DNA of 64,000 nt. Source: Vulcanimicrobiota bacterium. Its GTDB lineage: Bacteria; Vulcanimicrobiota; Vulcanimicrobiia; Vulcanimicrobiales; Vulcanimicrobiaceae. The stretch covers positions 2,720,001 through 2,784,000 of the forward strand of contig OY970223.1 of the NCBI GenBank assembly GCA_963714015.1, given 5' to 3'. The position numbers are program-made. Below, piece by piece: positions 23,101 to 29,100 of the stretch (within the stretch, counting starts at the first letter, position 1; every line of letters starts with the position of its first letter).

Positions 23101-26100
23101 GCTCCGCCGCTTTGCAGCTGGTATAAAACCTCTGCAGCACTTTGATGCGCGGGAAATTGAAACGCTCCGGCGTGCACGTCCGTGTCCGCATGTCGCGCTT
23201 TGGCATAGAGCCGGAAGAGGGTCGGATTACCTATGACGCCGGCGTCGCCGAGCTGCGCCGCGATGTCGCGAAACGTCGAGCCGCGTGGAACGATAATGCG
23301 CGTGATCTGCCCTGGATGCGACCGATCGATGAAGACCGCGTAGTACAGACCAGCTGCCGCCGCAATCGCCAGAGCGCACACGATCGCCACGCCGCCGATG
23401 ATGCGTCGAATCACGCGCCCGCCTCATTGCGTCGCTTGGCCAGGTACGTCTCCAAGATCAAAGCGGCCGCCATTTTGTCCACGACTGCCTTACGTTTCGC
23501 GCGGCTGACGTCGGCCGCAATGAGGCTCTTCGTCGCCTGCGCCGTCGTCAGCCGTTCATCCACGCGGGCGATCTTTCCGGAATACACGCGCGAGAGCTGT
23601 TCGGCGAAGCGATCGATCTTCTCCGCGGCCGGACCGCGCTCGCCCGAAAGCGTAACGGGATCTCCAATCGCCAGTTCGGAGATTTCGTGCTCCCGCACCA
23701 GATCGGCGACACGCTCCAAATCAGCGCGAAGATTCGTACGTTCGATAACCGCCAGAGGAAAAGCGAACGACGCGGACGGATCCGCCAGCGCAACGCCGAT
23801 GCGTTTGCTGCCGACGTCCAATGCCATGATCATTTCAGACCGTTTACGAATTCCGCCGCATGGAGTCCCGCCTTGGGGCGGCGTCCCAGGTGATGGCTGA
23901 CCAAGGATTCAACCGCTTGCGCCGCGCGTTTCGTAGCTGCGCGAGCCGGCCTTGCCGGTTCCGCCTTTAGCCGCCGCGAGTGCGCGCAGGTTCGCCATGT
24001 CGTTCTCCGTCAGCAGCAGCATGTCGCGCCATGCCACGCGGCAAGGGGCGCATGCAAACCCGCCTTGCTCCGCATCGAGATACGCATCTCCGCCGACGAT
24101 CGGTTTGCCGCAGTGAATGCACGCTTCCAGCGGCGGTGCAAGCCCGAGCGAATCGAGCAGGCGCAGCGAGAATCGCGGGATCAAGTCGAGCGGCTCTTCA
24201 CTGCGGCCGATGGCGCGCAATGCCGCCGTAAGCAGCGCGTAGACCTCCGGAAGCGGCAGGTCCGGTTCGCAAAATCCGTCGATCAGCTCCATGACGAGGC
24301 CTGCGGCGGCGAACCGATCGGGACGCACGAGCTCCTGCCAGTTGGACGATTCGAGATCGGCCGAGACGATCACGTCCAAATTCCGCCCCCGATGCATGCC
24401 GAGCAGTACTTCGTTCGCAATCTCGAGACGGCCGGATAAATGACTCTTGGTGCGGCGAGCTCCCTTCGCGATTGCGTCCATCTTCCCGCGCTGGGTGCTG
24501 AAAAGAATGACGATTTTGTCCGCCTCACCGAACGGACGAGCGCGCAGCACGACCGCTGAGGTTTTGTACGTCCGCGCCGGCGAGCTCACAGCCGGAACGA
24601 ATCGGGAAGCAGTTCGCGCAGCGCGGCGCGAACCGGGCCGTTCGGCGTCGTGTAGAAGACGCTCATTCCGGGCGAAAATTCGTTCAGGAACTGCCGGCAC
24701 GCACCGCACGGGGCCGCTGTCGCGCCGTCAGGACCGGCCACTGCGATAGCGCGAAATCTCGTGTGCCCCGCGGAAACCGCGCATACCGCCGCGCTGCGTT
24801 CGGCGCAAACCGAGAGGCCGTAACTGGCGTTCTCCACGTTTGCGCCTTCGAAAACCTCACCATCTTCCGTCAGCAGTGCCGCGCCGACGGCAAAACCTGA
24901 ATACGGCGCGTACGCATTGCGGCGAGCGGCTCGCGCGCGCTCGACGAGCTCTTGCGGCTCGTCAGCGCTCATCGTCCTCCTCTTCGTCGCCGTTCTCCCT
25001 CTTGGCGGATCGCCCGTTCATGCTAAAAATGCGCACCGCGAGAATCCGCCGTCCTCGCATGCGCTCGACCTTTAACCGCGTGCGCTCGTCCGCTTCGACT
25101 TCTTCGCCTTCGCTGGGAAGGCGCCCGAATAGTCCGACCGTGTATCCGCCGATCGTTTCGAATTCTTCGTGCGGAAGTTCGGTGCCCAGTTTGGCATTGA
25201 CGTCCTCGATGTTCACTCCGGAATCCACCACCGCTTCATGGTCGTCGACGATCCGCACCGGCTCTTCTTCGCCCTCGTCGTGCTCGTCGCGAATCTCCCC
25301 GACGATCTCTTCGAGCAGATCCTCCATCGTGACCAGTCCAGCCGTTCCGCCGTACTCGTCGACCACGATCGCCATCGAAAACTTGTCGCGCTGCATCTCG
25401 CGCAGCAGCTCGGAGATCTTTTTGTTCTCAGGAACGTGCGTAATCGCGCGCATGAGCGACCGCAGCGGCGTGCTGCTGATCGACCCGTCTGCGAGGGCGA
25501 TGAGCAATTCACGATCGTGCACGACGCCGACGATGTCGTCTTTCGATTCTTCGTATACGGGCAGCTTCGAATAGCCTTCGGCGATGACTGCGTCGAGCGC
25601 GCGGCGCGGCGAGTCGTTAACCGACACGGCGATCATATTGGGCCGCGGCGTCATGACCTCGCGAACGATCGTGTCGCCGAATTCGATGATCGAATGAATC
25701 ATCTCGCGCTCTTGCTCTTCGAGCACCTTCTGCTCGGCGCCGACGTTCACGATGGTGCGAATGTCTTCTTCGGTAATGAAGAGTCTGATGGGCATGCTTG
25801 ATTCCGAAGGGACGCAGCACTAGGTTCGTCAGAAACTGGAACAGGTACACGAGCGGAGTCAAAACCGTCGCAGCGCGCTGCATCGAGGGCGCAAGCCGGA
25901 GCGCCCACCGTTCGGTATCGGAAACGGCAATCGTCTTAGGCAAGATCTCGCCGAAGAGGAGCAGCAGAAACGTCATGACGATGGTCGAGATGACCGCGCC
26001 GTGCGGAACGCCCGCTCGGATGAAGATGTACGTTGCCAGTGAATCGGCGACCAGCAACACGATCGTGTTTCCGATGAGGATCGACGTGAGAAAGCGGTTG

Positions 26101-29100
26101 CGATCCTCGGTCAGACGCAGCACGGAGCGGGCGCGCCGGATTCCCTTTTCGAGCATCGCTCGGGCCCGGAGCCGTGAGACGCCGACGAGCGCTGCTTCGG
26201 AGGCGGCAAAGAAGGCCGCCAGTACGAGCAACACCACCAAAGCGGCGATTTCGTACCAGGGGACGATGTGGGCTGCCGGCTGGCTACTTAGCGGTTCCAA
26301 TTGCAAGCGCGATTATAGCACAAGGTGCGGACGCACCAGCACGTAAACGGCTAGGGCCACCAGCGCGCCCAGCACTCCTCCCCAAGCAACCTCGAAGACG
26401 TTGTGAATGCGCGCCTCCACCCGGCTTTGGGCAACCAGAAAAGCCAGGAAAAACGCCAAAACCGCGATGAGCGGGCGCTGAAAAAAGAGCGCCAAGCCGG
26501 TCGACGCGGCGAACGCGAGCGCGGCGTGTCCCGATACTGCGCCTCCTTGAAATGGCGACCCCCGGCCTACCCACGCCTTGGCGAAAAGGGTGACAATTGC
26601 GGCCACGGCGAGGATTATCAGCACGACGTTGGCGGGCACCTGCGCGACGGCAAAGTAAACCCGGGTTCCGCCTTGCTGAATACCTTGGTAGAAGACGAGA
26701 TAGCCGACGACGACCGCGCCGATTGTGGCAACGAGCACGGCTCCGGCGGCGGCATCTTTCGCCGTCTTGGCCAGCGGATGATGCGCGACCGTGAGCAGAT
26801 CGACGACCGCCTCAATCGCCGTATTCACCAGCTCCAAAGAGAGGACGCTGACGATCGCGACGACGACCGCAATGAGATACAGGCGGTCCAAGCGCAGCCA
26901 GAGCGTTGCGAGCAGTACGAATACGGCCGCGACCAGATGCACGCGCATGTTCGGCTGCGTGCGGACGGCGTACATGATGCCCTGAAACGCGTAGTGGAAC
27001 GCGCTCCAGAACTTGCTCTCGGTGATGCGCGTGTACCGCGCGCCCGCCGGTCCTTGCGGAAAGTCGGGGTGCTGGTGCGAACGCGGTTCCGGCTTGGGCT
27101 GGTGCATGCTAGACTCCGGCAATCAATACGGCCACGGCATGCCGATTGCCGCGGCCAAGCGGCGTTCTTCGGCCTCCATGCGCGCGCGTTCGCCGGCTTC
27201 TTCGTGATCGTGACCCAGCACGTGGAGTATTCCGTGAATGAGCAAGCGGTGAATCTCATTCTCCAACGGCGCGTCATATTCCGCGGCTTGCCGCCGGGCC
27301 GTATCGACGCTGATGACCACATCGCCCAGCAGCCGTTCCGGACAACCCGCGTCGTCCGGGGCAGCAGAGGCCGGCGCAGCGTCTGCGTAAAGCGGAAAGG
27401 AGAGCACGTCGGTGGCTTTGTCCTTGCCGCGGTGATCCAGATTCAGGCGCCGGATGACCGGGTCGTCGACGAGCGTCAGGGAAAGTGCGGCGTCCTGCTC
27501 GCCCGCTGCGTTCAGAAGCTTGCGCGCAATGCGCTTGAGGCGACCCCCTTCGATGCCGCTGCCCTTGGTTTCGTTGCGATAATAGATCACGGAGCGCCGG
27601 TGTTCGCAGCGTATGCGCGAATGATCTTGGCCACCAGCGGGTGGCGCACGACGTCGGTTTCATTCAACTCGACGATTCCGATGTCGTCGATTCCGCCGAA
27701 GCGCCGCGGCGCCTCGAGCAATCCGCTCGCCGCGCCTCCGGGAAGATCGATCTGAGTGACGTCCCCGTTGACGATCATCTTCGATCCGGCGCCCAGCCGG
27801 GTCAAGAACATCTTCAACTGCTCGCGCGTGGCATTCTGCGCTTCGTCCAAAATCACGAACGACTCCGAGAGCGTGCGTCCGCGCATGTATGCGAGCGGAG
27901 CGACTTCGATAACGCCGCGTTCCAAATACCGCGCGACGACGGGGTCGTCCAGCATTTCGCCCAGCGCGTCGTACAACGGGCGCAAATACGGGTCGACCTT
28001 TTCCTTCAGATCGCCCGGAAGAAACCCGAGCTTCTCACCGGCTTCTACCGCAGGCCGGGAAAGAACCAGGCGCGCAACTTCACGCGCGCGCAGCGCGCGG
28101 ACCGCCATGACGACCGCCAAGAACGTTTTTCCGGTGCCGGCAGGTCCGATGCCGAACGTCAGCGTGTTGCGTTCGATCGACTCGACGAAACTGCGCTGGC
28201 CTGCAGTCTTCGGCCGAATCTCGCGCCCGCGGTGCGATCGGTAGAGCGTGTCCGGAAGCGCGGTCTGATGCCGTCCGCGCAGTACGTCGGAAGCAGCGAG
28301 TGCGACGTCGTCCGGAGTGACTTGCGCGCCGCGTACGGCTGCTTCGAGCACACGCCGGACGACCGACAGCGCGCGATCGACTGCCGCATCCTCGCCGTGA
28401 AGCACGAGCCTGTTTCCGTCGACGCGCAGCGAGATCGCGAGCGCGTCTTCGAGCGCCGAGAGATTCTGATCGAATTTTCCGAACAGGCGAAAATGATCGT
28501 CGAGCGGGCTGAGGTCTATGGTTCGTTCGGCGACTGATTCCAGCTTCGGCGCTCTCCATTCGGACGTTCGAAGGTTTGGCGAAGGGCCGTCGGCGGACCG
28601 AGAATCTCGGAGGCAACGAGGGCCTTCAGTAAACTGTTCCCATCTTCGAACATCGCCTGCAAAGGCCCGGCCGAAGGATGCGGCGCCGCGGGATGGGTCG
28701 CCGGCTGGATTGGCGGAGCGGAGTCTTGCGGCTTAGGGCGGGTCGCGGTTGCGGCGGCCCGCGGCTGAGGCGGTTGTGCGGCGGCAGGGCCGCGCGCTAC
28801 GGCCTGTTCCCGCTGTTTCTTACGGGCGTAGTCGACCGCTGCGAGCACTCCCTCGAGCCCTTCCATGCTTTATTGTTTCGGGGGCGGCGAAGTCGGCAGC
28901 GCAGCTCCGTTCTCGGCAGTCGTCCCCACGCTGGTGGAGATGGCTCCGCGCATCTCGGAGTCTGCCTGGATGTTCTTCATCTTGTAGTAGTCCATCACTC
29001 CGAGATTGCCGCTGCGAAAGGCTTCGGCGATTGCCTGCGGGACCGACGCTTCGGCTTCGACCACTCTGGCGCGCATCGCTTGCGTCTCGGCCTTCTGCTC

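What a model noticed while it worked through the whole genome (the two positions that open the first line are those of the whole stretch)
23909..28405. Free-living family that has lost the ribosome GTPase Era (ybeY-dgkA-cdd-recO slot closed)
This 3.56-Mb free-living genome has no era: in the phoH-ybeY-dgkA-corC-cdd-recO operon cdd overlaps recO where era normally sits. The loss is shared by the whole Vulcanimicrobiaceae (1.9-5 Mb soil bacteria, with a cultured member), while the 16S GAUCACCUCC target is intact; uL30 and YsxC are missing too.
Evidence so far: TIGR00436 in six frames: 0 of 101 family genomes (84 at least 90% complete), controls ring in all 10 bacteria (150); 24 of 26 genomes of other families in the phylum have it (151). 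No Era motif in six frames and only MnmE, Obg, RbgA, YchF, Der, HflX among motif-bearing GTPases; cdd start/recO overlap at 2744586-9; 16S end GGATCACCTCCTTT (156). uL30 0 of 5 (134), YsxC 0 of 5 (153).
(Added by a program. Inside this text positions count along the whole contig: contig position 2,720,001 is position 1 of the stretch shown here. "Call 12" and the like, gene names such as g00115 and contig names such as C1 are that model's own, and its searches are not shown. The text may have been shortened before it was handed on; [...] marks where a part breaks off. The agent that wrote the report below was given it as the finding of a first reader that could run no searches.)

Follow-up and report, generated by a model that had tools for sequence, protein, structure and literature searches.

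The report
Free-living bacterial class lacking Era GTPase
A class of free-living soil bacteria with mid-sized genomes has lost Era, a ribosome-assembly enzyme that is essential in E. coli and was said to be lost only in highly shrunken genomes, and two other soil groups appear to lack it too.

Summary
The absence is real and wider than reported. This genome has no era: every GTPase is assigned to another family, and an Era KH-domain profile finds nothing (best E 0.15; controls 1e-44 or better). Era is missing from 232 of 232 sampled genomes of the class (three families, 1.9-5.0 Mb) and present in 65 of 69 genomes of sister classes. In 22 of 22 class genomes recO follows cdd or corC within 64 nt.

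Corrections: the overlap is cdd stop with recO start. The intact 'slot' is reconstructed, not seen in any relative. uL30 (0 of 70, phylum-wide) and YsxC (absent in 18 of 30 outgroups) losses are unrelated to era.

RbfA, RimM, RimP, RsgA, KsgA, YbeY, bS21, bS1 and the 16S 3' end are kept and ordinary. The loss is not unique: no era in 81 of 81 Dormibacteria-class genomes or 113 of 201 Armatimonadota. Best reading: an ancient clean deletion tolerated by slow growers through Era-independent 30S assembly. No replacement was shown; an N-extended KhpA is an untested lead. I found no paper or earlier scan note reporting this.

The parts
23909..24589 (-). recO, GTG start overlapping the cdd stop
   Evidence: TIGR00613 E 2.9e-23; RecO_N and RecO_C; junction read
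24586..24589 (-). 4-base cdd stop / recO start overlap; the place where era is inferred to have been
   Evidence: Sequence. In 22 of 22 class genomes the upstream gene ends within 64 nt of the recO match, with no Era remnant. The ancestral position is inferred.
24586..24972 (-). cdd, cytidine deaminase
   Evidence: TIGR01354 over cut-off; present before recO in 15 of 22 class genomes, lost in 7
24962..25795 (-). corC/hemolysin-like gene, CBS-CorC half
   Evidence: CBS and CorC_HlyC
25617..26306 (-). corC/hemolysin-like gene, CNNM (DUF21) half; frame break near 25780-25800
   Evidence: CNNM E 1.4e-43; the halves are spaced in frame in relatives such as L029 and L037, so probably an assembly indel
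26313..27107 (-). dgkA fused to PAP2
   Evidence: DAGK_prokar and PAP2
27123..27590 (-). ybeY, Era's usual partner, retained
   Evidence: TIGR00043 E 1.1e-38; present in 15 of 15 class genomes with an ordinary metal motif
27587..28543 (-). phoH/ybeZ; start probably a CTG at 28543 (inferred by eye)
   Evidence: PhoH E 2e-90 on 27590-28519; upstream frame read
28870..30560 (-). nfeD and floA, upstream members of the cluster
   Evidence: Pfam NfeD and FloA
31066..31236 (-). rpsU (bS21), retained; its binding depends on Era in E. coli
   Evidence: TIGR00030; PMC6736133 passage
22425..23833 (-). yqgF (ruvX) and mltG downstream of recO; order shared with most sister-class loci
   Evidence: TIGR00250 and TIGR00247; synteny

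Best explanation
era was deleted once, in the ancestor of the class, from its position upstream of recO; deoC, which lies between era and recO in sister classes, is gone from there too, and recO is now coupled to cdd or corC. SHOWN: absence, class-wide extent, closed junction, retained partners. INFERRED: these bacteria build the 30S platform by an Era-independent route with RbfA, KsgA, RsgA, RimM, RimP, YbeY and LepA and an unchanged 16S 3' end, without a dedicated replacement. Era then acts as an accelerator and checkpoint of platform closure rather than an obligate step, and cells with one rRNA operon that double in about a day can do without it.
For: Absence: G000; 0 of 232 class genomes, 14 of them single-contig; 65 of 69 outgroups positive. 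Junction: 22 of 22 GTDB genomes and 2 of 2 close metagenome loci. Retained factors in G000: RbfA, RimM, RsgA, RsmE, LepA, bS21 over curated cut-offs, RimP and bS1 below them; KsgA; RbfA and YbeY in 15 of 15 class genomes and ordinary in alignment. h45 and anti-SD match outgroups in 19 class and 7 era-bearing 16S genes; h23, h24 and h45 fit the Rfam consensus. Slow growth: the cultured member doubles in 17-21 h (PMC9758169); Era-depleted E. coli still doubles in 225-275 min and reroutes assembly (PMC6736133); one rRNA operon; weak codon selection, S = 0.34 on 31 genes. Era is non-essential in S. aureus, S. pneumoniae and M. tuberculosis (PMC10582724). Repeated loss elsewhere suggests a low barrier.
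Against: Slow growth is not sufficient: era-bearing relatives also show a single 16S match (G062; G414, G424, G464), and I have no growth data for them. Depletion in E. coli may be leaky, and its particles had immature h23, h24, h44 and h45 and lacked bS1 and bS21. I did not inventory class-specific proteins genome-wide, so a replacement could be missed; the extended KhpA coincides with the loss in 4 of 4 class genomes. No experiment was done. The operon of origin is reconstructed. The cultured strain's genome was not checked by name.
Confidence: 0.55

Rival explanations
1. A non-homologous RNA-binding protein replaced Era. The best lead is KhpA, a KH-domain protein encoded between rpsP and rimM, which in this class carries an acidic N-terminal extension of about 90 residues. 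RbfA, which binds the same site, is the other candidate.
For: KhpA extension in 4 of 4 class genomes (G000, G011, G055, G071) and 0 of 2 era-bearing sister-class genomes. Its first 45 residues are well conserved in the alignment rows from the two families of the order; 1598 long KhpA-like proteins were found. era and rbfA are complementary in some CPR classes (PMC12641178).
Against: Era-less G311 and G354 have a plain KhpA of about 75-80 residues and era-less G312 has only a C-terminal tail, while era-bearing G433 has short extensions. The extension in the third family is unrelated in sequence. RbfA shows no class-wide change. The passages I read on KhpA concern small RNAs, not 30S assembly. 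The Atlas gave no hit for the extension.
Confidence: 0.2
2. A change in 16S rRNA made the platform or h44 fold without Era, for instance the class-fixed C1415-G1485 pair (E. coli numbering) in place of a G-U wobble, with A at 1482.
For: Fixed in 19 of 19 class 16S genes and 0 of 7 era-bearing outgroup genes. A scan for this signature also pulled out era-less Dormibacteria and a Chthonomonadaceae genome; 14 of 44 tested signature genomes lack era.
Against: 30 of those 44 have era (Coriobacteriia, spirochaetes, Thermotogae, Synergistaceae, one era-bearing member of the same phylum). 2 of 5 era-bearing Armatimonadota have it, and era-less G006 does not. So it is neither sufficient nor necessary. 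h23, h24 and h45, Era's known targets, look like the consensus.
Confidence: 0.12
3. Era was lost because its regulatory role (a ppGpp target and antagonist of RelA during exit from dormancy) is useless or harmful in cells that live near permanent starvation.
For: A 2026 preprint reports that Era dislodges RelA and drives resuscitation (abstract only). The era-less groups found here are mainly soil lineages (habitat partly recalled). A Rel-type motif is present in G000.
Against: Nothing here tests it. The era-bearing sister classes were not compared for stringent-response genes.
Confidence: 0.1
4. Era is present but too diverged to detect, or missing through incomplete assembly.
For: Some Armatimonadota Eras are divergent (full length, E 1e-35 to 3.5e-46). 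G000 has frameshifts. Only the top candidates were scored.
Against: In G000 no unassigned TRAFAC G domain remains and no Era-type KH domain exists. 232 genomes agree, 14 of them single-contig, and the junction is closed in 22 of 22.
Confidence: 0.03

Closest known systems
Loss of era in CPR/Patescibacteria, Chlamydia and Dependentiae (PMC10582724; PMC12641178: era in 19.4% of CPR and 97.3% of non-CPR genomes)
   Same: Lineage-wide absence of the same near-universal 30S assembly GTPase; some CPR classes likewise have rbfA and era in complementary distribution.
   Different: Those are genome-reduced and also lose other factors or shorten rRNA (CPR nearly lack rimM, rimP, rsfS, rsmG). Here genomes are 1.9-5.0 Mb, a member grows in pure culture, 16S is about 1500-1530 nt, and RbfA, RimM, RimP, RsgA, KsgA, YbeY, Der and Obg are kept.
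Patchy era in Planctomycetota, Elusimicrobiota and Synergistota (Figure 1 legend of PMC10582724)
   Same: A published hint that era can be missing outside extremely reduced genomes.
   Different: One legend sentence without counts or lineages; it names neither Eremiobacterota/Vulcanimicrobiota, Dormibacteria nor Armatimonadota. I could not see the figure itself.
Species where era can be deleted: S. aureus, S. pneumoniae, M. tuberculosis, some B. subtilis strains (PMC10582724)
   Same: Ribosomes can be made without Era.
   Different: These keep the gene and, by the review, suffer severe phenotypes without it; here the loss is fixed across a class.
Terrabacterial ybeZ/phoH-ybeY-dgkA-cdd-era-recO neighbourhood (PMC10582724, synteny section and legend; exact B. 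subtilis order recalled)
   Same: Same genes in the same order on both sides.
   Different: era is absent; sister classes split the cluster into a ybeY-dgkA-corC block and an era-(microcompartment-like genes)-deoC-recO block.

Membership tests
Era GTPase (any protein of G000) | TRAFAC G domain followed by a type II KH domain, about 300 aa, matching TIGR00436 over its length | tested here: not met
   No full-length match; all G-domain hits belong to other families; KH-only profile best E 0.15 against 1e-44 for controls
Lineage-wide era loss (CPR/Chlamydia/Dependentiae kind) | era absent across the lineage | tested here: met
   0 of 232 class genomes, 65 of 69 outgroups positive
Lineage-wide era loss (CPR/Chlamydia/Dependentiae kind) | Extreme genome reduction | tested here: not met
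   1.9-5.0 Mb; pure culture of a member described in PMC9758169
Lineage-wide era loss (CPR/Chlamydia/Dependentiae kind) | Parallel loss of other 30S factors and shortened rRNA | tested here: not met
   RbfA, RimM, RimP, RsgA, KsgA, RsmE, YbeY, LepA present in G000; RbfA and YbeY 15 of 15 in the class; 16S 1499-1527 nt with intact h45 and anti-SD. Factors other than RbfA and YbeY were checked in G000 only.
Lineage-wide era loss (CPR/Chlamydia/Dependentiae kind) | Loss of ribosomal proteins accompanying the factor loss | tested here: inconclusive
   uL30 is absent, but in the whole phylum (0 of 70), so it predates the era loss; no full ribosomal protein inventory was made
Terrabacterial ybeY-dgkA-cdd-era-recO operon | era directly between cdd and recO in the nearest era-bearing relatives | tested here: not met
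   era upstream of deoC-recO in 5 of 12 outgroup stretches; no era near the ybeY block in 14 of 14; the ancestral order is inferred from the two halves
Era-independent 30S assembly route | Mature, active 30S made without a factor in the Era site | not testable with these tools
   Needs cryo-EM or mass spectrometry of assembly intermediates
KhpA as a functional stand-in for Era | Extension present in all era-less lineages and absent in era-bearing ones | tested here: not met
   4 of 4 in this class, but absent in era-less G311, G354 and G312; this lowers a general role, not a class-specific one

The most novel reading that the evidence does not exclude
Free-living soil Terrabacteria have dropped Era several times (this class, Dormibacteria, over half of the sampled Armatimonadota), and in this class a GTP-independent substitute evolved: KhpA, encoded between bS16 and RimM, gained a conserved acidic N-terminal arm and took over Era's place on the immature 30S platform. 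The repeated loss alone I put at about 0.85; the substitute is the speculative part.
Probability: 0.12. Interest if true: 0.85.

Novelty: new variant of a known kind. Interest (0 to 1): 0.6.

Why it matters
A 2023 review states that only extremely genome-reduced groups overcame 'Era addiction' and that Era's exact molecular function remains elusive (PMC10582724). A class of ordinary-sized, free-living bacteria with a cultured member, a standard 16S 3' end and the other 30S factors checked here in place is a natural deletion mutant. It allows a direct test of whether Era is an obligate assembly step or a rate and quality-control factor. The mixed Armatimonadota sample (88 with, 113 without) offers paired lineages for finding whatever permits the loss. 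era is also in the bac120 marker set, so these lineages are probably under-scored for completeness (inference).

Tried and rejected
(1) uL30 and YsxC as co-losses: rejected. YqeH is absent in class and outgroups alike (0 of 5 over the cut-off).
(2) Altered 16S target: none. The trailer that could pair with the anti-SD is similar in several outgroups.
(3) h44 signature as the cause: neither necessary nor sufficient. Only 1 of 5 era-less Armatimonadota had a 16S end.
(4) Changed RbfA or YbeY: ordinary (one RbfA fragment, G040, was left out).
(5) KhpA extension as a general substitute: rejected; no Atlas hit.
(6) Reduced Shine-Dalgarno use: strong SD before 8.3% of 2413 roughly called starts against 3.6% in a control window. 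Start calls are crude and there is no outgroup comparison, so inconclusive.
(7) Sequencing runs: no RNA holder listed; no reads were laid.
(8) Crude motif searches for further factors are leads only.
(9) PMC11182017 and PMC13140390 had no passage on Era. Two papers on Eremiobacterota and Dormibacteria genomes were not held.
(10) No folding or complex prediction was run, because no binding claim is made.
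Full report
1. THE LOCUS. corC is split by a frame break that relatives lack. G000 has other such breaks (EF-G2, TypA), so this is probably assembly noise.

2. ERA IS ABSENT FROM THE GENOME. G000 is one 3.56 Mb contig without N. All 25 MMR_HSR1 matches were read. Der, MnmE, HflX, Obg, YchF, RbgA, LepA, RsgA and a broken EF-G2 were confirmed by NCBIfam; the others I named by eye. KH_2 finds only uS3. A profile from 12 Era proteins of sister classes, run without filters on 51,403 six-frame ORFs, hits only other G domains. Its KH half gives best E 0.15, against 9e-44 or better for four held-out Era genes. The Era-like G1 motif occurs six times, in MnmE, Obg, RbgA, YchF and twice in Der.

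3. THE LOSS IS CLASS-WIDE. In 301 genomes of the phylum, the best TIGR00436 E-value is 4.8e-22 or weaker in all 232 genomes of the class: 207 of the own family, 3 of a second family in the order, 22 of a third family. Fourteen are single contigs, and roughly 195 are at least 90% complete (234 tallied minus about 39 outgroup rows counted by eye). Ten of the 232 are flagged unpublished (G128, G178, G212, G230, G232, G237, G245, G247, G263, G275); without them the count is 0 of 222, and no other claim rests on them. In other classes 65 of 69 have era (two in pieces, one cut short). The four misses are G013 (75% complete), G032 (89%), G096 (78%) and G006 (98%). G006 shows no Era KH domain either and has other genes where relatives have era, so it may be a second loss. 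Kin are not independent: the class counts as one event. The taxonomy rests on named look-alikes: KhpA relatives labelled Baltobacteraceae or Vulcanimicrobiaceae at 64-77% identity and seven named Eremiobacter* genomes, all without era. The cultured strain was not checked by name; its paper's supplement had no Era entry.

4. THE SLOT. In 22 of 22 class genomes recO follows cdd (15) or corC (7) within 64 nt, with no Era remnant; two close metagenome loci agree. In sister classes era lies upstream of deoC-recO, directly (G003, G019) or across 4-6 kb of microcompartment-like genes (G062, G052, G050 and, up to 6 kb, G072); five of 12 stretches show the run through yqgF. The ybeY-dgkA-corC block lies apart, with no era in 14 of 14 stretches. 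The ancestral ybeY...cdd-era...recO order is therefore a reconstruction from two halves and from the synteny described in PMC10582724.

5. WHAT WAS NOT LOST. G000 keeps RbfA, RimM, RimP, RsgA, RsmE, LepA, bS1, bS21, KsgA and YbeY. RbfA and YbeY are in 15 of 15 class and 15 of 15 outgroup genomes and look ordinary. The 16S h45 and anti-SD match outgroups, and h23, h24 and h45 fit the Rfam model. uL30 is missing in 70 of 70 genomes across the phylum and is often lost in free-living lineages (10.1101/2021.01.31.429008). YsxC is in 0 of 40 class and 12 of 30 outgroup genomes. Neither tracks era.

6. SEARCH FOR COMPENSATION. Of 24 alignment columns fixed against seven outgroup 16S genes, five lie in lower h44, including C1415-G1485 and A1482. 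A genome-wide scan for this signature and an era test on 44 hits found era in 30, and era-less G006 lacks the signature, so it is not the cause. KhpA has an acidic N-terminal arm of about 90 residues in 4 of 4 class genomes and in 0 of 2 outgroups, conserved within the order, but era-less genomes of other groups lack it. It stays a lead.

7. THE LOSS IS NOT UNIQUE. The same scan exposed other era-less genomes. In the class of a named Dormibacteria genome, 0 of 81 (1.5-4.5 Mb) match at E 1e-28. In the phylum of a named Chthonomonadaceae genome (Armatimonadota, recalled), 113 of 201 have no match at E 1e-32. I asked for at least 90% completeness, but the output does not show completeness or families, and only 11 or 27 candidates per genome were scored. 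A low-threshold check of five such genomes found no match reaching past model position 186. Two Spirochaetota genomes (6.3 and 2.8 Mb) and one 1.5 Mb genome also lack it. These are 'not found in those searched'.

8. HOW IT PROBABLY WORKS. Era helps dock h23/h24 and recruit uS11, bS21 and bS1 before RbfA, KsgA and RsgA act (PMC10582724). Era-depleted E. coli particles find parallel routes, and the cells double in 225-275 min (PMC6736133); the cultured class member doubles in 17-21 h (PMC9758169). G000 has one rRNA operon and weak codon selection. I infer that the slow route suffices (0.55). Against this, era-bearing relatives also show single operons, and no proteome-wide search for a substitute was possible. 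Rivals: replacement 0.2, rRNA compensation 0.12, stringent-response rewiring 0.1, undetected Era 0.03.

9. WHAT IS KNOWN. PMC10582724 (abstract, passages, section 4 part 1, section 16; figures not seen) says only extremely reduced groups lost era, while its legend lists patchy presence in Planctomycetota, Elusimicrobiota and Synergistota. PMC12641178 (parts 1-2 of 7, passages, supplement search and part 1) gives era in 97.3% of non-CPR genomes; its set has no Eremiobacterota entry and 3 Armatimonadota. PMC9758169, PMC6736133, PMC11182017, PMC13140390, 10.1101/2021.01.31.429008 and 10.1101/2023.10.30.564711 were seen as passages; 10.64898/2026.04.21.719802 as abstract and outline. Ten library searches showed no report of era loss in this class, Dormibacteria or Armatimonadota. 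The library lacks most subscription papers, two lineage papers were not held, and preprint supplements are closed. Public marker tables must contain the pattern implicitly, since era is a bac120 marker. Earlier scan notes hold no era-loss finding.

10. VERDICT. Observation confirmed with small corrections; interpretation partly supported. This is a new variant of a known kind: lineage-wide loss of era, here in free-living, mid-sized genomes with the rest of the checked 30S machinery intact, and apparently recurrent. Interest 0.6: it contradicts a stated generalisation and gives a cultured test system, but era is already known to be dispensable in some species and lost in other lineages, and no mechanism is shown.

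Noticed in passing
G312's class and G311's phylum: No era found in 81 of 81 Dormibacteria-class genomes or in 113 of 201 Armatimonadota genomes; also missing in Spirochaetota G309 and G323 and in G326.
   Followed up: partly
G360, G374, G387, G400, G412: Full-length but strongly diverged Era (E 1e-35 to 3.5e-46) in 2.2-2.7 Mb Armatimonadota genomes; possibly relaxed selection before loss.
   Followed up: no
L311 1651-2193 minus (G000 2619147-2619692): KhpA between rpsP and rimM has an acidic N-terminal arm of about 90 residues with a conserved first motif in two families, and an unrelated acidic arm in the third; outgroups have the plain short protein.
   Followed up: partly
G006 (L076, L142): A 98% complete genome of another class lacks era, and unrelated genes sit where relatives have it; possibly an independent loss.
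   Followed up: partly
L013 4515-8278: The single 23S gene is 3764 nt, with a group I intron match at 6703-7010 and about 500 further extra bases unexplained; no obvious endonuclease frame.
   Followed up: partly
G000 whole genome: ARAGORN finds no tmRNA although SmpB is present; a divergent or two-piece tmRNA is possible.
   Followed up: no
G000 whole genome: An outgroup RNase Y-like query (name recalled from its motifs) finds only a 39-residue weak hit, so RNase Y seems absent; an RNase E/G-like motif is present. Not checked in the class.
   Followed up: partly
L312 1360-1959: uL15 has a Lys/Ala-rich N-terminal extension of about 45 residues, directly after uS5, where the uL30 gene is missing.
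   Followed up: no
window 25780-25800: Frame break in corC; in frame in relatives. EF-G2, TypA and IF3 also look broken in G000, consistent with assembly indels.
   Followed up: partly
L067, L069, L074, L075, L076: In sister classes a cluster of microcompartment-like genes (names recalled) and deoC lies upstream of recO; it is absent at this place in the class.
   Followed up: partly
L140 3765-5837: A membrane protein of about 690 aa (probably the HD phosphodiesterase PgpH, recalled) precedes ybeY in several outgroups and has no match in G000.
   Followed up: no
window 28541-28543: phoH probably starts at a CTG that overlaps the end of the upstream 116-aa gene.
   Followed up: no
G000 start regions: Shine-Dalgarno signal is modest, and several ribosomal protein genes have A-rich leaders without one; start calls are rough.
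   Followed up: partly
G000 2312830-2313513: The 16S-23S spacer holds no tRNA; tRNA-Ile and tRNA-Ala lie about 385 kb away.
   Followed up: no
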